Below, one piece after another: positions 11,401 to 58,398 of a stretch of DNA of 64,000 nucleotides. The stretch lies in NCBI RefSeq assembly GCF_009914755.1, contig NC_060943.1, one strand, 5' to 3'. The DNA comes from the human T2T-CHM13v2.0 reference genome, Homo sapiens. The position numbers and the translations under genes were made by a program. How positions within the stretch are numbered: the stretch's first letter is position 1; the number at the start of each line of letters is the position of its first letter. Below the pieces are notes generated by a model. The model had not been told where the DNA came from and did not search any database. It worked only from the letters and a program-made list of their open reading frames with translations.

Positions 11401-12998
11401 GCGTCTGGCCACCTAGTAAGCTGTGGATAAAGATGTTGATGTTATTTACTTCTCAGGCATTCCAGCAATCCTTTCAGTGATGCAGAGAGATTGATCTTCT
11501 TTAACTTCCATATCCTCTGCACAATAGCCCATACTTCTGCTGGTTGCAACTATTTCTTCAGAAATCCATTATGCCCTACGACTTGCTTTCAGTCTTTCTT
11601 TTCAACTACATCTTTCCAAGCACACACTGTTCCCCCGAAAAACTTTAGGTTTTGTGTATGAAATTATATAATATCTGGGATTTGCTCTAAAATAATCTGG
11701 GGATGACAGTTCTCTCCTTTTGCAAACATTTGAAATTTTTTACAGTACAGTTTTTAATTAAGTAGCCAGTATATAGACTATATATAAAAGAAAAACAAAA
11801 TTATCAGTACTGGCATGGCTATATCTTCAAGAAATGCTGTAGTATGAAAAGGCATGAAGAAAACATGCATAATACGAGACCAATTATTTTAACGACAAAA
11901 AAATAAAATTGATCTCATAAGTACACACAAACATTCATAAATGCACTAGAAAATGTCAAAAGAAGGCATTCCTTGTAGGGGGGGACACTGGGTTTAGAAG
12001 AAATGAGGTCAAGGTATAAATCTGTAATGTTTGAATTTTACCCACAAGAAGGTATTATATTACTTAAATGATTTGTATAAACATTTTAAAAATAAAGGTC
12101 ATAATACAGTTAAAATTTTTAAAAAATTTAATCACAGTTTGGAACCCAGCAACCATGCTTCTTGTTACAGAGCACTCTTTCTATTTTGTGTTCTGTTTTT
12201 CCTGTTCCTCCAGCGATGTTCTAACACTCTATACAGCAAGGTGGGTTTGCTCAGTCACCTCTCTATCCTGGAACATCCCTGCACCACATAAATTGCCTGT
12301 CACAAGGTAAGTGCTCAATAAATATTCATTGAATGCATAACTTTCAGTGCCATGGTTTTATGCCATGTAGTGATAACCGGTGTTTTCTTTTAAGAAGATC
12401 CGCATTTATTCCCTTTCTCCTTCCCTCCCTCCCTTCCTTTCTTTTATACAGAAACATCAGTGTGATTCCTGGCCTTTGTCTTTCCATCACACTCTTCACA
12501 TGACTGACAGGACAACCCCATGCCTCTACTCTCACAGAATAGCCATAGCATGGCCACTTCTCATTGTCTGCCAGTTCACTGACAGCAGCTTTGTGTTTAC
12601 TACTAAGTGTCTGGCTCACAGCAGATGCTCGATAACTCCATTTCTAAGAAATAAATATCTCTTCCTGTAACTTCTTCCTGCAATTCAAACCAGAGAGTAT
12701 TTCTCAGGAATTATCAGTTGATTGAGTGGCAAGGTATGTCTGGACTATGCATTTCATTTGAATCTATTAATAGTTTTATGGCTAGAAGAGAAAATGAAAC
12801 AAAAATGGATTTTCAGCTGGGTGGAAAAGTTCAGTCAGTAGAACAAGTGAGGGAACATTCTGGGGAACAGATGCAGAGTGTGGGCAGGCTGTCATTATGA
12901 GTGTGACAGTGTTTACCAGCTGAGCTGACCTTTGTTCTGATGAAAATCTTGTAATTCACTATCCAAATATCAATTATATCTTTGACATACAAAAAAAA

Positions 12999-26402: not shown

Positions 26403-26812
<410 letters not shown>

Positions 26813-28318
26813 TCAGAAGCAAAAAAATCAAATTCTGCATGTTCTCACTTAAAATGAGAGGTAAACGATGGATACATATGGACATAAAAAATGGAAATAA
26901 TAAACACTGGAGACTCCAAAAAAGGGCAGAGAGAGGAGGGAGTGAGGATTGAAAGATTACCTATTGAACACAGTGTTCAGTTTTTGAGTGACAGGTACAC
27001 TAGAAGCCCAATCCCTACCATTGTGCAATACCCCCATGTAACAAACATGCACAGGTACCCCCAAATCTAAAGTTTTTGAAAAAAAGAATCTTGAGCATCT
27101 TTGTAAAGGATTTAAAGGATAAAATAAAGAACAGCCACGCAAGTTTTCTTATAATAGATGAAAAAATTATATTGATTACTTAATATGAAAAATAAACTGC
27201 ATAGTCTTACTTTCTTCAATTTCTTCACTCATTTGTCCTTAAACTGAGTCTGAAGTGGCCTTCTATCCTTCCACCTCATAGAAATGATTCTGTTAAAGTC
27301 ATTAATGGCCTGCATATTGCTAAACACAATGGTCAGTTATCAGGTCTCATCTTACTTAACCTGCCAGTTGATTATTTCTTCCTGCTTGATAAACTTTCTT
27401 CACTTAGCCACCAGGACACTGAACTCTCTTAGTTTCTTCTCATCTCGCTGTTTGCTCCATCTCAATGTCCTTTACTGCTTCCTCCTTTTCTCTTGACTTC
27501 TTTATCTTGGGTTGACCCAATGCCGTTTCCCTTCTCTTTTTCAGCTGTACTTACTCTTTGGTGATCTCAGCCTCTCACGTTTTAAATGTTATCTATCTGT
27601 TACAAGCTCCAAATTTATATCCCCAATCCAGACTTCTGTACCAAACTCTAAACTCATGTATTCAACTCCCTGCACTTGGACATACAACAGGCATCTCAAA
27701 CTCAAGATTTCCAAAGCTGAGCTCCTGATATTCTTCCCCCTTAAACATGCTCCATCCACAGCTTTGCCAATCTTAATTTATGACTTCCTCACCCGCCCAG
27801 TGTCTTGGGCCAAAATCCCGGTAGTCATTCCTGATTCTTCTCTTTTTATCACATCTCACATCTAATTCACCAGGAAATACAGTTTGCTTTTCCTGTAAAA
27901 CATATAAATATTCTGACCAATTCTACCAGCTCTACTTCCACAAATCTGATCTGAGTTACCATTGTCACTGGAGGATTACTGTCATAGCCTTACAAATACT
28001 CTTTCTTCTGTCCATGCCTATCCGTAGTCCATTCTGTACACAGCAGCAAGGCGGATCCTTTTAAAATATAAGCATGATCATATCTGTCCTCTGTCCATGC
28101 CTCCCATCTTTCACTTACAGCCAAATTCCTTAATAATGGTCCATAAGTTTCTCTGTGATCTATTTTTCCATATTCTCTTCAATTTCATCTCCTACCTCTT
28201 TCCCCCTCTACTCCAGACACAGTGGCCTCCTTGTTGCTCCTTAAAACTTCTATTGACACTTCCTCATAATGGTCCTTGTCAGTAGCTAATATCTCTGTCT
28301 GGAACCTTTTTCTCCAAG

Positions 28319-28382
28319 GTTCACTGACTGTTTCCCTGAGTCATTTGATAAAGTTCAAGGCAAATCCTACATCTCCCTCTGA
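28319..28382 (+). pseudogene. Galectin exon-2-like remnant, copy A (LTVSL-SHLIKFKANPTSPS)
   Basis: Homologous to 29238-29302 with a 6-nt deletion; phase-2 end followed by an intact gtgagg donor; 5' end abuts L2. Confidence 0.7.
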
Positions 28383-28418
28383 GTGAGGAGGTCACCCGGG
28401 CACAAATCATTGAACACA

Positions 28419-28919
28419 TGTAACAGTGAAACAGCAAAGGAACTACCAAAACAAACTCCACTTTTGTTTAAGAGGCATTTACCCATTCCTGCATGTAAGT
28501 TAAGATAATTTTAAAGCACTGAGATAAAACACAAAAGCAACCATGTAGTTTTTTAAGTAAACTGTACAATTAAAGGGGAGATATGGAAACAACTAACTAT
28601 GTTTTCCTAAAGATTTATAGAAGCATTGTGACTTGACCAAGGACAAAGAAGTTCCCAATCTTCTCAGAGCCTCACTGGTACCCAGATGTCTGCAGACTTC
28701 AGTCACCTCTTGATCCCAACCCCTGAGCATAGTTTCCTCATATCGCCCTCCCATAAGAACCCTCCAGCCAGCCTAAGAAACTTGAGATGGTCTTTGCAAC
28801 CCTAGCCTGCCACCTCCTTGGGTTGCTGCTTCCCGATAAACCTGCTTCTCCTCACACCAACTCTCGTCTCTTGACTTTGGCTTTTGAGTGGCGAGCAGCT
28901 GAACCTAGATTTGGTTACA
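28419..28919 (+). mobile_element. Solo LTR (ERV1-class)
   Basis: TGTAAC...GTTACA termini, 4-bp TSD CACA, 501 bp. Confidence 0.85.
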
Positions 28920-29225
28920 CACATACTGGCCTATAGTGCAAAAGAGAATATGTATATGTTTGTCAATGAGAATGGCTGGATTTGCCTAATTCTCTGTTTT
29001 TTTGTATTTTTATTTAAGTTTGGAATTAGTTGTATATAAAATGTGTGTCTGTGCCCCTGAGTGTGTGTGTCTGGATTCAGATTAATATCTCCTTGTCAGG
29101 GGCATGCCTGCGTCTCTTAGCTGCAAGAGGAAACCATGCTCTGTGTCCTGATTCTACCTGGGCATCAATGTAGGAAACAAAGTCTTGGCTTTCACCTACT
29201 GATGCATCCATCTCTCCCACATCTC

Positions 29226-30703
29226 AACCCCTGCTGACTGTCTGTTTCCCTGATTGTGGGTCATATGATGAAGATCATGATAAATCTCATGTCCCCCTCT
29301 AATGGAGTAGACTGCAGTTTGTGTGTAATGGAGGGTGATGGGAAAAGGGGAAGTATTAGCATGCCTTGGGACCCACAATAGAGACAACTCAGACTTCTCC
29401 AGTCACCAAAATGAGCAGAGGTGGCTGATGTAAGAGCCTGAGATACACTCCAGGCAGGATTTCCTTTCCACATGTGTGTGCCTGTGTGTGTTGGGGTGGG
29501 GGCAAACTAATAAAGGTAAGTAGATGTTTGAGACAGAGAGAGCAAGAAGGACTGTGTTTGCTCTCAGGAGGTTACATTTCCTATAGTAATGGCTTTATGG
29601 AGAAAGTCGTTTTCCTGTCTCTGCAGAAGGAGTCCAGAATTCCAGGTGGATTTCTGTGAATATCCCAAGGAAGGCGCCACCATGACATTCCACTTCCCAG
29701 TGTACTCGAGCAATGTGGTAGTGATGAACAGCATCCAGAAAGGGTTATGGAATGAGAAAAACATGTTTCTCTGGCTCCTTTGTGACAGGGAAGTCTTTTG
29801 AGCTGTGAGTTTTGGTGCTGGACAATCAGTACCAGGTATGTGGGCCCTAAGGGGTGAGGGGCATGGACCTCAGTGGCTGGGGTGGGGCTGCTGTGGAGGA
29901 ACTGAGTCCAAATCTGATCTGGTCTCAGTAGAAAAATTGGATTCCATATCCTACCATGCCCTTTGCTGCACACAAGCCCCAGCCACAAAAGCTGACCTCT
30001 GGTTCTGGTGCTCTCCTTGTCTTCTCCATAAAACATGCTCATTCTTGCAGATGGAGCTGAAACATCAAAACTCTGAACCTTATTGGTCACTGTCTCTTTC
30101 TCATTGAGAAAACACAGATCACAGACACATTCCCCACTGCAGTCCTTCATCCCTGAGGGCGGAGGACATGTCTCCTGTGCATGGCAGCAGTCTTGACCCT
30201 GAGGAAAATATTGAAGACAACTTTTTAAGCACTGCAGTGTGTGCTGTGCAAGTAAAGATTCAGAGGTGAATCCAACACATCTCCTGCCCTCAAGGACAGT
30301 CAGGAATGTTGAGGGAAAATTACAGGCTTGCTGTCATCAGGGTAGACCAGGGATGAGAAGCTCTGGAAGCAAAGAAGTGGGACAATGGAGGATGATTTAC
30401 TGCAGCCAAGGCTTGGCCATGTTTCCTGGAGAAGGAGATATTTGAGCTGTTTTGTTTTGAGGGAGAATAGAAATTTTTACAGGCAATGAGAGGAAAGGCA
30501 TTTGAGGAAAGGGAAGGTGGAGGTCTGAATGTTCTGAGCTCACAAGCAGTACATCTCTTTCCCCAGGTGTTTGTGAATGGGAAGTCCACCTATATGTTTG
30601 CCCACTCCCTTTCACCACAGTCTGTGAAAATGGTGCAGGTGAAGGGAGATACTTTCCTGACTTCAGTGGATATATTGTAAGGGGCAGAGAATCTTGCAAT
30701 AAA
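29226..30703 (+). pseudogene. Diverged prototype galectin pseudogene, galectin-15/11-like: exon 2 29226-29302, exon 3 29627-29835, exon 4 30567-30680, AATAAA 30698-30703
   Basis: Exon sizes 77/209/114 versus CLC 77/211/126. Peptides NPC*LSVSLIVGHMMKIMINLMSPS, SPEFQVDF...FHF...VVMNS...W...SFVTGKSFEL*VLVLDNQYQ and VFVNGKSTYMFAHSLSPQSVKMVQVKGDTFLTSVDIL*. Net 2-nt deletion in exon 3 and stops at 29235 and 29806. Confidence 0.92.
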
Positions 30704-31639
30704 AATATCCACCTCATTACACTCTTTTATAATGTGCATGATCACAGCATCTCCCAGAAGGTGCCAGAGTGTCTCCCAATCCCCACACTTAAGCTAATGA
30801 TAGTAAAATCTTCCTAGTATTAGCCAGGACTTGGCTCTCGCTAATAGGAAAGATCCCAAGGGAAGATTTGGCACATGTGGAAATTCATCCTGGGTAGGGT
30901 GTACAGAGTGTGGCTTGGGAAAGGTGCAGGTGGTTAAAATGTCAATGGTTGCCCCTGAAATAGAGACAGAGCCAAAGCATCTCATGATATTATGCAGAAG
31001 ATGGAAGGGTGTTGGGCTATGGAAGGAAGAAATATGGCTTTGGGCGTGTGACTCTCTTTTGAGTTGTTTGTTCATTCAACACATAGTTATTGACCCCTTA
31101 CTGTCATATACCTCTATGTATGCCAGACATTCCCATATCACTGGTGTAAGGAGCTGAGAGGACCAGGAAATGATCCTATTGGCAAAAGGAACTCGATACT
31201 GATGAGTTAGGGATGAAGTTGTTCTTAGAGGGGCTCCTTAACTCAGGAGTTAAGTGTCAGTTGGTCAGGCAGATGTACCTTGAACCCTGATGCATGGCTT
31301 TCTGGAGGTCTATCTCCCCTCCCTCCACTCAGGACCACTCAGGGTGCACCCAAAAGCTTTCAGGGGTCACAAAGTGTGATCCAGGAGACTGGGCTCAGAC
31401 CTTTCCAGACCTCTCTAGCCTGAGGTCCTCTGGAGACATACAGAAAAGCCAAAACCTGTAGACCTAATTATCCTCCAAGTTTCTGTGGTCCCTGAGTTTC
31501 CACAAACTCCCAGACACTTCATGTAAAAAGAATGGTTGCTTTTGTCATCTTTAGGCCCTCAGAGTGTTCTTCCATGATTTTCCTCGGAAAGTTTTGTTCA
31601 TGTTTTTTTTGTGTTTTTGGTTGTTGTTTGTTTGTTTTG

Positions 31640-56788: not shown

Positions 56789-56940
56789 AAGGGCCAAGGC
56801 GTTATCGTCGGCCACGCACAAGATTTCTCTCCAAACAACTCACAGCATTGAGAGAATTGCTTGAAAAGACCATGCACCCAAGTTTGGCTACAATGGGGAA
56901 ACTGGCTTCAAAGCTACAACTTGATCTATCCGTAGTAAAG
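56789..56940 (+). CDS. LEUTX: LEUTX exon 2 (homeodomain residues 1-46, Leu at position 20)
   Basis: ctgcag acceptor; EGPRRYRRPRTRFLSKQLTALRELLEKTMHPSLATMGKLASKLQLDLSVVK; AAG|gt donor at the PRD-class 46/47 intron position. Confidence 0.95.
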
Positions 56941-57419
56941 GTCTGTTCCCAAGTGTGTCTGTAGGTAGCACGCCTAACCCAGAGCTTCACACACACTTTT
57001 GATCATTGTTATAACAGTTCCTATTTATTGGCAATTGCTATGTGTAAGGACAGATGTTAAGCACTTTATATTTTTATTGTCATGAGCACCCACTTTATTG
57101 AGGAACACTAAAGCTCACATAGAAGAGCTGTCTTCCAAGCATTATAAACACAAGAGTTGGAATTTGAACCCAGACCTTTCCAACTCCAGACCCACCATGC
57201 TACACAGGACTCTTTGAGGCTGGATCTCAGATACTCCCATTTGGGTCTGTTCTTGTGTATTCAGGATGGGTTCTGCTTAATCAGGACCATCACAGTCATC
57301 CAGATGCCTGTCACTAAGTTCCCACAAAGTATTCATGGGAGAACACCTGGATGAACCCTAAAGATGACCCAAGCTAAACTCTCACCCCATACTCTGACTT
57401 TAAAATACTTTCTCTGGGC

Positions 57420-57712
57420 ACCAGGAATGGTGGCTCACACTTGTAATCCCAGCACTTTGGGAGGTGGAGGCAGGAGGATCGCTTAAGCCCAGTTTAAGAC
57501 CAGCCTGGGCAACATAGCAAGACCATGTCTTTACAAACAAAAATTAAAAATTAACCAGACATGGAGGCACATGGCTGTAGTCCCAGCTACTTGGGAGACT
57601 GAGATAGGAGGATTGCTTAAGCCCAGGAGTTCAAGGCTGCAGCGAGCTATGATTGCAGCACTGCACTCCAGGCTGGGTGACAGAGTGGTAGCTTGTCTCA
57701 AAAAAAAAAAAA
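57420..57712 (+). mobile_element. AluJ in LEUTX intron 2
   Basis: Diverged Alu with poly(A). Confidence 0.85.
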
Positions 57713-57960
57713 TACACCACTAATAAAAACACCCTTCTATTTAATACATCACAATCTAGGTCATATTCCACCCATTGCTAGTACAATCCTACACCCACTT
57801 TTCCCTTGAAACCCAGGACAGCAGAGAGTAGAAAGGGCTTCCCTTGTTCCAATAAATGTGAGACTCTCTCTCACACCAAAAAACCGAATTCCTGAGGAAC
57901 ATGAGGATGCCCCTTTATACTCAACATCCATTATTAACCTCCCCCCTCCTCCCTCCTTAG

Positions 57961-58398
57961 ATCTGGTTCAAGAACCAGCGTGCCAAATGGAAGAGGCAGC
58001 AGCGGCAGCAAATGCAGACACGGCCATCACTAGGGCCAGCAAACCAGACAACTTCAGTGAAGAAGGAGGAGACTCCCTCAGCCATAACTACTGCAAACAT
58101 TCGTCCAGTAAGTCCTGGAATCTCTGATGCAAATGACCATGATCTACGTGAGCCTTCTGGTATCAAGAATCCTGGAGGAGCCAGCGCCTCTGCGAGGGTT
58201 TCATCCTGGGATTCTCAGTCATATGACATTGAACAGATATGTCTGGGGGCTTCAAATCCTCCTTGGGCCTCCACTCTCTTTGAAATAGATGAATTTGTAA
58301 AGATCTATGACTTGCCAGGGGAAGATGACACCAGCAGCCTAAATCAATATCTTTTTCCAGTATGCCTTGAGTATGACCAGCTCCAATCTTCAGTGTAA
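57961..58398 (+). CDS. LEUTX: LEUTX exon 3 (IWFKNQRAKWKR with K50; acidic C-terminal Leutx domain)
   Basis: Polypyrimidine tract and ttag acceptor; 7+152+438 nt = 198 aa plus TAA. Confidence 0.96.
   Translation: MWFKNQRAKWKRQQRQQMQTRPSLGPANQTTSVKKEETPSAITTANIRPVSPGISDANDHDLREPSGIKNPGGASASARVSSWDSQSYDIEQICLGASNPPWASTLFEIDEFVKIYDLPGEDDTSSLNQYLFPVCLEYDQLQSSV

What the first reader, a model, noticed from the sequence alone, without database searches (positions are those of the whole stretch)
29226..30703. Human fossil of a galectin-15-like ancestral galectin, distinct from the CLC/placental clade
Seen: exon phases match a prototype galectin, exons 3-4 keep intact splice sites and AATAAA, and the reconstructed protein is far from CLC. 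From recall, ruminant galectin-15/11 reads about NPYQQSVSLTVCYMVKIKANLLS...KNPELQVDF...FVPGQPFELQFLVLENEYQ|VFVNNKPICQFAHRLPLQSVKMLDVRGDIVLTSVDTL*. The fossil has NP..LSVSL.V..M.KI..NL.S, SPEFQVDF, FVTGKSFEL.VLVLDNQYQ and VFVNGK...FAH.L..QSVKM..VKGD..LTSVDIL*, with the same C-terminal end point and KGD in place of RGD. Inference: a galectin type usually described as ruminant-restricted existed in the boreoeutherian ancestor at this locus and may be the sister or progenitor of the anthropoid cluster. Exon 4 is still fully open.
Basis: partly seen in the sequence, partly recalled or inferred. Interest (0 to 1): 0.8.

Follow-up and report, generated by a model that had tools for sequence, protein, structure and literature searches.

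The report
Old dead galectin gene beside CLC
This is a single-copy, long-dead galectin gene between CLC and LEUTX that split off long before the primate placental galectin cluster arose and most resembles sheep galectin-11/15, which hints that this "ruminant" type is older than its name suggests.

Summary
Window 29226-30703 (+) carries an exon 2-like, an exon 3 and an exon 4 of a prototype galectin. Introns are retained. Exons 3 and 4 have AG/GT splice sites, exon 4 is open, and AATAAA follows. There are two in-frame TGA stops and a 2-nt loss.

It is an unprocessed pseudogene, single copy in the genome and absent from the RefSeq rows supplied. Gene models in three other catarrhines cover it.

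"Distinct from the CLC/placental clade" is well supported by DNA. The other cluster units compared keep 70-79% identity to each other in introns. The fossil's introns match them no better than unrelated sequence (37-47% against 40-45%). Its exons are 56-60% identical to theirs, against 77-78% within the cluster. Synonymous distance is 0.8-1.4, against 0.16-0.50. The protein tree alone cannot exclude nesting (AU p 0.24-0.46).

"Galectin-15-like" is only partly supported. Sheep galectin-11 (PDB 6N3R) is the best solved match for exons 2 and 4, and about 51% identical overall by hand count, against 37-43% for cluster proteins. Exon 3 is nearer to galectin-10. The shared C-terminal end and the GD motif also occur in human LGALS7 and LGALS4, so they are ancestral traits. 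No ruminant sequence could be put in a tree.

The parts
29226..29306 (+). Exon 2-like remnant. In-frame TGA at 29235-37. No AG acceptor (29224-25 is TC). GT at 29307. It is 81 nt, against 77 nt in the cluster genes, so it is out of phase with exon 3.
   Evidence: Sequence read. The stretch 29238-29306 has one PDB hit at E<=10, sheep galectin-11 residues 13-32, 12 of 20 identical. CLC exon 2 gives 42 hits, none of them 6n3r.
29307..29626 (+). Intron 2 (320 nt), retained.
   Evidence: 38.8% mean identity to 10 cluster units, against 73.6% within the cluster. Unrelated controls give 39.6-44.8%.
29627..29835 (+). Exon 3, the core of the carbohydrate-recognition domain. It is 209 nt. A 2-nt loss near 29763-29766 shifts the frame. 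In-frame TGA at 29806-08. AG and GT splice sites are intact.
   Evidence: PF00337 match of 19.7 bits. 56.0% nt identity to cluster exon 3. Siamang, douc and colobus models read NEKN[IV]AFS in frame.
29836..30566 (+). Intron 3 (731 nt; 1.8-2.8 kb in LGALS13 and CLC), retained.
   Evidence: 37-47% identity to cluster introns, which is control level. nhmmer finds only the exons with short flanks, plus Alu/L1 outside the locus.
30567..30680 (+). Exon 4 coding part. 37 open codons plus TAA.
   Evidence: PF00337 match of 23.2 bits. Best PDB hit is 6n3r at 31.3 bits, 23 of 37 identical, running to the last residue of both. 36 of 37 residues identical to colobus P0008 (my count; tblastn 97.4% over 38).
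30698..30703 (+). AATAAA polyadenylation signal, 18 nt after the stop.
   Evidence: Sequence read.

Best explanation
It is an unprocessed (intron-bearing) galectin pseudogene and makes no galectin. It has two in-frame stops and a 2-nt frameshift. Exon 2 is out of phase and lacks an acceptor, and no exon 1 is recognisable.

It sits at the LEUTX edge of the chr19 galectin cluster but is not one of that cluster's recent duplicates. It separated from the ancestor of CLC/LGALS13/14/16/17A and their six pseudogene neighbours long before those units separated from each other.

The stop after ...FEL is shared with siamang, whose model ends exactly there. The douc and colobus models are consistent with it. 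So the gene was probably dead before the catarrhine radiation. The 2-nt loss is younger than the human-gibbon split.

Inferred, about even odds: it is the primate remnant of the old gene lineage of the EID2-DYRK1B interval that survives in ruminants as galectin-11/LGALS15.
For: Anatomy.

Single copy: a DNA search of the whole genome finds only itself.

Galectin family: PF00337. The precomputed Pfam domain of P0008-P0011 is PF00337.

Old split:
- blastn aligns the other 11 units to each other over 0.5-6 kb at 71-86%. It aligns the fossil to them over only 47-66 bp, inside exon 3.
- In anchored MAFFT segments the fossil against 10 units gives exon 3 56.0%, exon 4 59.8% and introns/flanks 37-47%. 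Within the cluster these are 77-78% and 70-79%.
- Eight unrelated controls per segment give 39.6-44.8%.
- NG86 dS is 0.80-1.39 for 5 fossil-cluster pairs and 0.16-0.50 for 10 within-cluster pairs.
- In the ML tree the four catarrhine fossil rows form a clade (100/99) on a 1.57 stem. That clade is sister to the cluster (73/72) and groups with it against LGALS4/7 (97/96).

Age of death: P0010 ends at ...KSFEL. P0011 leaves the exon there. P0008/9 skip that stretch. All read through the human frameshift site in frame.

Link to sheep galectin-11: see per-exon scores. By hand count, the human fossil matches 6n3r at 63 of 123 positions (51%). It matches 10 cluster proteins at 47-55 of 128 (37-43%). 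CLC matches 6n3r at about 48 of 129 (37%, hand count).
Against: The protein tree alone does not exclude nesting. AU tests holding the fossil with galectin-10, with LGALS13/14/16, or with galectin-10 plus 17A give p 0.46, 0.24 and 0.24, with a log-likelihood difference under 1. Cluster monophyly has only 73/72 support.

Gene conversion among cluster units could make them look younger than they are, exaggerating the contrast.

The link to LGALS15 rests on one solved sheep protein and on hand counts. Exon 3 favours galectin-10 (40.8 against 30.3 bits). With the colobus counterpart, 6n3r and a monkey galectin-10 tie (70.2 against 69.8 bits). Several shared traits are ancestral.

Shared stops in other primates are inferred from gene models, not from their DNA.
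Confidence: 0.8

Rival explanations
1. It is an old lineage, but not specifically of the LGALS15 type. The fossil is the little-changed remnant of the ancestral gene of the locus, or a sister of the cluster's founder. It resembles sheep galectin-11 only through retained ancestral residues. On this view ruminant genes are equally related to the fossil and to the primate cluster.
For: The GD motif and the short C-terminal end also occur in human LGALS7 and LGALS4. The fossil's exon 4 is close to both 6n3r (31.3 bits) and CLC (27.6 bits), while CLC exon 4 is far from 6n3r (12.8 bits). That is the pattern of a short fossil branch. Exon 3 is nearer to galectin-10. Ely et al. 2019 (passages read) propose one ancestral gene with independent duplications in primates and in artiodactyls.
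Against: Intron homology with the cluster is erased and dS is 0.8-1.4. This puts the fossil-cluster split far deeper than any split within the cluster, so a founder copied from it within primates is unlikely. In exon 2 the fossil and sheep galectin-11 share residues (S.....M.K...NL.SP) where the cluster proteins and LGALS4/7 differ (alignment). Both have also lost the G that the others keep after I-K/R/Q.
Confidence: 0.35
2. It is an ordinary, heavily decayed member nested within the anthropoid CLC/placental cluster.
For: AU tests on 139 protein columns cannot reject such placements. It lies next to CLC.
Against: Neutral decay cannot explain the pattern. The other pseudogenes of the cluster compared keep about 70-79% mean intron identity with the genes, while the fossil's introns are at control level. 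The four catarrhine copies differ little from each other (83-91% aa identity), so decay since the catarrhine ancestor is small.
Confidence: 0.03
3. The locus is still used, for example as exons of a non-coding or chimeric transcript.
For: Splice sites of exons 3 and 4 and the AATAAA are intact. The siamang model P0010 joins an upstream exon (counterpart of window 12209-12307) to exon 3. The douc model P0011 joins exon 3 to LEUTX exons. Exon 4 differs from colobus at 1 of 37 residues (my count).
Against: RefSeq lists no transcript here (the rows supplied with the finding; one search lists none between CLC and LEUTX). Such gene models can be artefacts. About 7 aa differences in about 83 residues between human and colobus (hand count) were not tested against neutral drift. 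No reads were available.
Confidence: 0.05

Closest known systems
Sheep galectin-11 (LGALS-11; the same protein as LGALS15/OVGAL11 by my recall), PDB 6N3R/6N44
   Same: It is the best solved match for exon 4 and the only one for exon 2, and it ties for best with the colobus counterpart. It ends at the same residue. About 51% identity by hand count. Goat and cow galectin clusters, goat's including LGALS15, lie in the same EID2-DYRK1B interval (Ely 2019 passages).
   Different: The sheep gene is intact and expressed. It has the LDV and RGD sites (PMC7442640 passage) where the fossil reads VQV and KGD. Its exon 3 is more derived, with a one-residue gap and a glycine-rich loop. Orthology was not tested by a tree or by alignment of the genomic loci.
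Human CLC/galectin-10 and the anthropoid chr19 cluster (LGALS13, 14, 16, 17A)
   Same: Same subfamily against LGALS4/7 (97/96). Same exon plan, with a 211-nt exon 3 and exon 4 starting in phase 0. Same chromosomal interval. Non-canonical sugar-site residues: the FHF..V motif, with N and R replaced.
   Different: 37-43% aa identity. Exons 56-60% identical at nt level, no intron homology, dS 0.8-1.4. Introns are shorter (320 and 731 nt).
Cluster pseudogenes (LGALS17A, LOC100129935 and four unannotated units)
   Same: Unprocessed galectin pseudogenes with premature stops. Than et al. counted 38 pseudogene variants across primates (review passage).
   Different: Those units are recent duplicates that align with the genes along their whole length. 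This one does not. Its stops are not at the recurrent residue-55 site described in that passage.

Membership tests
Galectin (Pfam PF00337, Gal-bind_lectin) | Significant match to the carbohydrate-recognition domain profile | tested here: met
   Exon 4 scores 23.2 bits (cut-off 22.1). Exon 3 scores 19.7 bits, collinear with it. P0008-P0011 carry PF00337. PDB galectin hits down to E 1.5e-18.
Galectin (Pfam PF00337, Gal-bind_lectin) | Canonical sugar-binding residues (the H-x-N-x-R ... V-x-N ... W-x-x-E-x-R scheme is recalled) | tested here: not met
   The fossil reads FHFPVY...VVMNS...LWNEKN. LGALS7 and LGALS4 read HFNPR...VVFN...W-G-x-E-E-[RK]. H, N and W are kept. The N and R of the first motif and the E/R after W are replaced. 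The cluster proteins deviate in a similar way.
Anthropoid chr19 galectin cluster | Four-exon prototype plan with a 77-nt exon 2 and a 211-nt exon 3, inside the EID2-DYRK1B interval | tested here: met
   Exon 3 is 209 nt with a 2-nt loss. Exon 4 starts in phase 0. The location is chr19:42.561 Mb, between CLC and LEUTX/DYRK1B. Exon 2 is 81 nt, so it deviates.
Anthropoid chr19 galectin cluster | Descent from the cluster's duplication units (alignable introns and flanks) | tested here: not met
   Introns and flanks 37-47% identical, against 70-79% within the cluster and 40-45% for unrelated controls. blastn gives only 47-66 bp.
LGALS15 / galectin-11 type | Closer to LGALS15/11 than to any other galectin | tested here: inconclusive
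   6n3r is top for exon 4 and the sole hit for exon 2. It ranks 42nd of 55 for exon 3. It ties overall. Hand count gives 51%, against 37-43% for cluster proteins.
LGALS15 / galectin-11 type | LDV and RGD cell-attachment motifs | tested here: not met
   The fossil and colobus read VQVKGD where 6n3r reads LDVRGD.
LGALS15 / galectin-11 type | Orthology shown by a tree and by syntenic alignment with ruminant loci | not testable with these tools
   No ruminant genome or stored ruminant protein was available. Three word searches returned only primates.
Unprocessed pseudogene | Introns retained plus disabling mutations | tested here: met
   Two introns retained. TGA at 29235 and at 29806. A 2-nt loss. 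Exon 2 out of phase and without an acceptor.

The most novel reading that the evidence does not exclude
The EID2-DYRK1B interval already held two galectin lineages before the boreoeutherian (perhaps eutherian) radiation. One lineage gave the anthropoid CLC/placental cluster. The other is the galectin-11/15 type, so far treated as ruminant-specific, which was present in primate ancestors and died before the catarrhine radiation, leaving this fossil. That would replace the 'one ancestral gene, independent clusters' picture. It predicts intact orthologues of the fossil in some non-catarrhine mammals.
Probability: 0.45. Interest if true: 0.5.

Novelty: new member of a known kind. Interest (0 to 1): 0.4.

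Why it matters
Reviews list galectin-15 as a ruminant gene and galectins 10, 13, 14, 16 and 17 as primate inventions (table in PMC4440931). The one comparative study I could read proposes a single ancestral gene at this locus (PMC6751361).

A deep-branching fossil in the human copy of the locus gives a fixed point for rooting the cluster. It also helps decide what the primate and ruminant clusters descend from.

It has a practical side too. Annotation pipelines in other primates turn this fossil into 'galectin' proteins, one of them fused to LEUTX. Those models can contaminate galectin family analyses.

It has no evident bearing on human physiology, because the gene is dead.

Tried and rejected
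Ruminant and other non-primate relatives. I sought them with all three protein word searches. The queries were a CLC exon 3 open frame, the fossil's exon 3 frame with the region option, and the colobus counterpart. Only primates came back: 7, 3 and 4 named proteins. Another 9, 2 and 4 candidates of unnamed source were left out by the tool. The word filter is strict. Human LGALS16 shares 7 five-letter words with the first query and was not returned, while the weakest hit shared 9. A blank for non-primates therefore means little.

Atlas search. It gave only generic galectin clusters and no usable ids.

Profile of the fossil clade. MAFFT misaligned the fragments and the junk ends of the gene models, so I abandoned it (alignment A1 not used).

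Protein tree. It could not settle nesting, so I relied on DNA.

Absolute dating. I rejected dating from dS or intron identity, because the local rate and gene conversion are unknown. Only relative depth is claimed.

Exon 1. A strict pattern did not find it.

Literature. Than 2009, Than 2012, Than 2014 and Gray 2004 are not held. I saw nothing of them beyond citations and summaries in other papers. Than 2009's lists of pseudogenes and Ely 2019's supplementary table 8 may already include this unit. Searches for it in print gave these results:
- (galectin, chromosome 19, pseudogene, LGALS13, LGALS15): 14 papers, 13 listed.
- (LGALS15, human, pseudogene, ortholog): 3 papers, 2 listed.
- (LGALS15, LGALS13, synteny, DYRK1B): 2 papers, 1 listed.
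- (LEUTX, galectin, pseudogene): 0 papers.
None of the passages I read mentions a galectin remnant between CLC and LEUTX.

Full report
WHAT IS THERE

On the + strand of the window there are three collinear galectin exon remnants separated by retained introns.

Exon 3 (29627-29835):
- It has a pyrimidine tract and AG before it, and GTATGT after it.
- It is 209 nt, two short of the 211 nt seen in all five annotated cluster genes or transcripts.
- It reads RSPEFQVDF...WNEKN, loses the frame near 29763-29766, resumes as FSGSFVTGKSFEL, meets TGA at 29806, and ends VLVLDNQYQ.

Exon 4 (30567-30680) follows an AG. It is open for 37 codons to TAA, and AATAAA follows at 30698.

The exon 2-like stretch (29226-29306):
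- It has TGA at 29235.
- The acceptor AG is missing.
- It is 81 nt up to the first GT, against 77 nt in the cluster genes, so it would not join exon 3 in frame.

A strict scan for a five-codon first exon found CLC's exon 1 but none upstream of the fossil.

The 1.5-kb locus is single copy in the genome. The RefSeq rows supplied show no gene here, and one search lists none between CLC and LEUTX. No masked repeat of 100 bp or more lies between 26763 and 31589.

IT IS A GALECTIN, AND OTHER CATARRHINES HAVE IT

A six-frame Pfam search of the genome gave 70 matches at E<=10. Of these, 22 lie in chr19:42.357-42.563 Mb and make up 12 units. The fossil is the last of them: exon 4 scores 23.2 bits and exon 3 scores 19.7 bits.

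Word searches with the fossil's exon 3 frame and with its colobus counterpart returned only four named proteins:
- two Ensembl-type 'Galectin' models of Piliocolobus (P0008, P0009);
- 'galectin-10 isoform X3' of siamang (P0010);
- a 'hypothetical protein' of Pygathrix (P0011).

They are 83-91% identical to the human reading and map to the fossil's exons. Parts of them are intron-derived or borrowed from elsewhere:
- P0010 starts in the counterpart of window 12209-12307.
- P0011 runs on into the LEUTX coding exons.

WHEN IT DIED

P0010 ends exactly at ...KSFEL, where the human sequence has TGA. P0011 leaves the exon at that point. P0008 and P0009 splice out the stretch that holds it. All four read NEKN[IV]AFS in frame where the human sequence lacks two bases.

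I infer that the stop at 29806 predates the human-gibbon split, and probably the catarrhine ancestor. I infer that the 2-nt loss is later. These inferences come from gene models, not from the other species' DNA.

IT IS NOT A MEMBER OF THE ANTHROPOID DUPLICATION CLUSTER

I fetched the other ten units (L001-L010). CLC is in the window.

- blastn aligned the eleven other units to each other over 0.5-6 kb at 71-86% identity. It aligned the fossil to three of them over only 47, 62 and 66 bp, all inside exon 3. Some of the cluster-to-cluster cover may be shared interspersed repeats.
- nhmmer with CLC, LGALS13 and the L001 pseudogene as queries found only the fossil's exons with short flanks, plus Alu/L1 outside the locus.
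- In MAFFT alignments anchored on exon 3 and exon 4, the comparison was:

| Region | Fossil vs 10 units | Within cluster |
|---|---|---|
| Exon 3 | 56.0% (53.6-61.2) | 77.2% |
| Exon 4 | 59.8% (56.1-62.3) | 78.3% |
| Introns and flanks | 37-47% | 70-79% |

- Eight unrelated window stretches put in the fossil's place gave 39.6-44.8% and 40.4-43.7%. The fossil's introns are therefore indistinguishable from unrelated DNA.
- NG86 synonymous distances over 102-105 codons are 0.16-0.50 for the ten pairs among CLC, LGALS13, 14, 16 and 17A. For the five pairs with the fossil they are 0.80-1.39, and four of those five are 1.33-1.39.

Neutral decay since the gene died cannot explain this. The cluster's own pseudogenes that were compared keep their intron homology, and the four catarrhine copies of the fossil differ little from each other.

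THE PROTEIN TREE AGREES BUT IS WEAK

The tree had 17 rows and 139 columns under LG+C20+F+G4.
- The four fossil rows form a clade (100/99) on a stem of 1.57.
- That clade is sister to the cluster (73/72).
- Together they group against LGALS4 N-domain, LGALS4 C-domain and LGALS7 (97/96).
- AU tests do not reject trees that hold the fossil with galectin-10 (p 0.46), with LGALS13/14/16 (p 0.24), or with galectin-10 plus 17A (p 0.24).

Rows I left out: the six cluster pseudogenes other than LGALS17A, plus P0001, P0007 and P0009. No non-primate row was available.

HOW 'GALECTIN-15-LIKE' IS IT?

Chain 6n3r_A is sheep LGALS-11 (PMC7442640, passages). That galectin-11 is the same protein as LGALS15 is my recall. 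The per-exon phmmer scores against it are:

| Exon | Fossil | Human CLC |
|---|---|---|
| Exon 2 | 12.1 bits; the only PDB hit at E<=10, collinear, 12 of 20 identical | No 6n3r hit among 42 hits |
| Exon 3 | 21.6 bits for the human 57-residue frame; 30.3 bits for the in-frame douc version | 36.4 bits |
| Exon 4 | 31.3 bits; top of 75 hits, aligned to the last residue of both | 12.8 bits, below galectins 8 and 4 |

With the colobus counterpart, 6n3r (70.2 bits) and a monkey galectin-10 (69.8) tie. Behind them come human galectin-10 (about 65), galectin-13 (55-59), galectin-16 (52-54), galectin-14 (51) and galectin-4 (35).

A full macaque galectin-10 scores only 82.6 bits with 6n3r. It scores 149-166 bits with cluster paralogues and 77 bits with galectin-4.

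Identity counts:
- Human fossil against 6n3r: 12/20 + 28/66 + 23/37 = 63/123 (51%), counted by hand from the printed alignments.
- CLC against 6n3r: about 48/129 (37%), counted by hand.
- Fossil against ten cluster proteins: 47-55 of 128 (37-43%), counted by script.

So the fossil is nearer to the sheep protein than to any primate cluster protein, and nearer than the cluster is.

Part of this closeness is shared ancestry of the whole family:
- Human LGALS7 ends with GD plus nine residues, as the fossil and 6n3r do.
- Both LGALS4 domains have GD.
- FAH, L-P-L-Q-type residues also recur there.
- Saimiri galectin-10 keeps GD too.

The fossil's exon 4 is close to both the sheep protein and CLC, while those two are far from each other. 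That fits a fossil that has changed little.

The best candidates for shared derived residues are in exon 2. There the fossil and the sheep protein share S, M, K, NL and SP. Both lack the glycine that the cluster proteins and LGALS4/7 keep. This stretch is short.

The sheep LDV and RGD sites (PMC7442640) are VQV and KGD in the fossil.

WHAT IS KNOWN

- Review passages describe the cluster as arising by birth-and-death evolution in anthropoids, with many pseudogenes (PMC4138504; PMC4440931). A table in the latter lists galectin-15 under ruminants.
- Ely et al. 2019 (passages) place pig, goat, sheep, cow and opossum relatives outside the primate LGALS13/14/16 clade. They note that the cow and goat clusters lie between EID2 and DYRK1B, and they propose a single ancestral gene with independent duplications. 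The words CLC and LGALS10 do not occur in that text.
- Four literature searches and the passages I read mention no galectin remnant between CLC and LEUTX.
I cannot say that the unit is unrecorded.

VERDICT

The object is a dead, unprocessed galectin gene of a lineage much older than the anthropoid cluster (confidence about 0.8). Whether it is specifically the primate counterpart of ruminant galectin-11/15 is about even odds. It may instead be an ancestral-looking sister of the cluster. Only non-primate genomic sequence can decide.

It is a new member of a known kind. It is of moderate interest for galectin evolution, and of practical interest as a source of spurious gene models.

Noticed in passing
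window 56790-58395 (LEUTX coding exons) and 29589-29805: The Pygathrix 'hypothetical protein' P0011 is a chimeric gene model. Its residues 1-73 come from the galectin fossil's exon 3 and the intron before it. Residues 74-213 map to the LEUTX coding exons.
   Followed up: partly
window 12209-12307 (+): Residues 21-53 of the siamang model 'galectin-10 isoform X3' (P0010) map here at 91% identity. This is about 2 kb beyond the CLC start, on the opposite strand, and the model joins it to the fossil's exon 3. It may be an unannotated upstream exon or a model artefact.
   Followed up: no
L001 2405-2615 and 4499 onward (chr19:42357404-42357614, 42359498-42359942; outside the window): Exons 2 and 3 of the lncRNA LOC105372399 coincide with a galectin exon 3 (exactly 211 nt, with one TGA) and a galectin exon 4. 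The lncRNA is therefore a transcribed cluster pseudogene.
   Followed up: partly
L002 (chr19:42373313-42375061, -), L003 (42388372-42390742, +), L008 (42498141-42500507, +), L010 (42530303-42530546, -; about 1.5 kb before the window start): These are four further galectin pseudogene units of the cluster with no gene row in the RefSeq table. The L010 unit shows only an exon 3-like piece.
   Followed up: partly
window 26763-31589: About 4.8 kb around the fossil has no masked repeat of 100 bp or more, while Alu/L1 lie on both sides.
   Followed up: no
P0007 (Cercocebus atys 'Galectin', 108 aa): This looks like a truncated or mis-spliced galectin-10 model. Its first residues match the frame that runs from the intron into CLC exon 3, and part of exon 3 is missing.
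   Followed up: no
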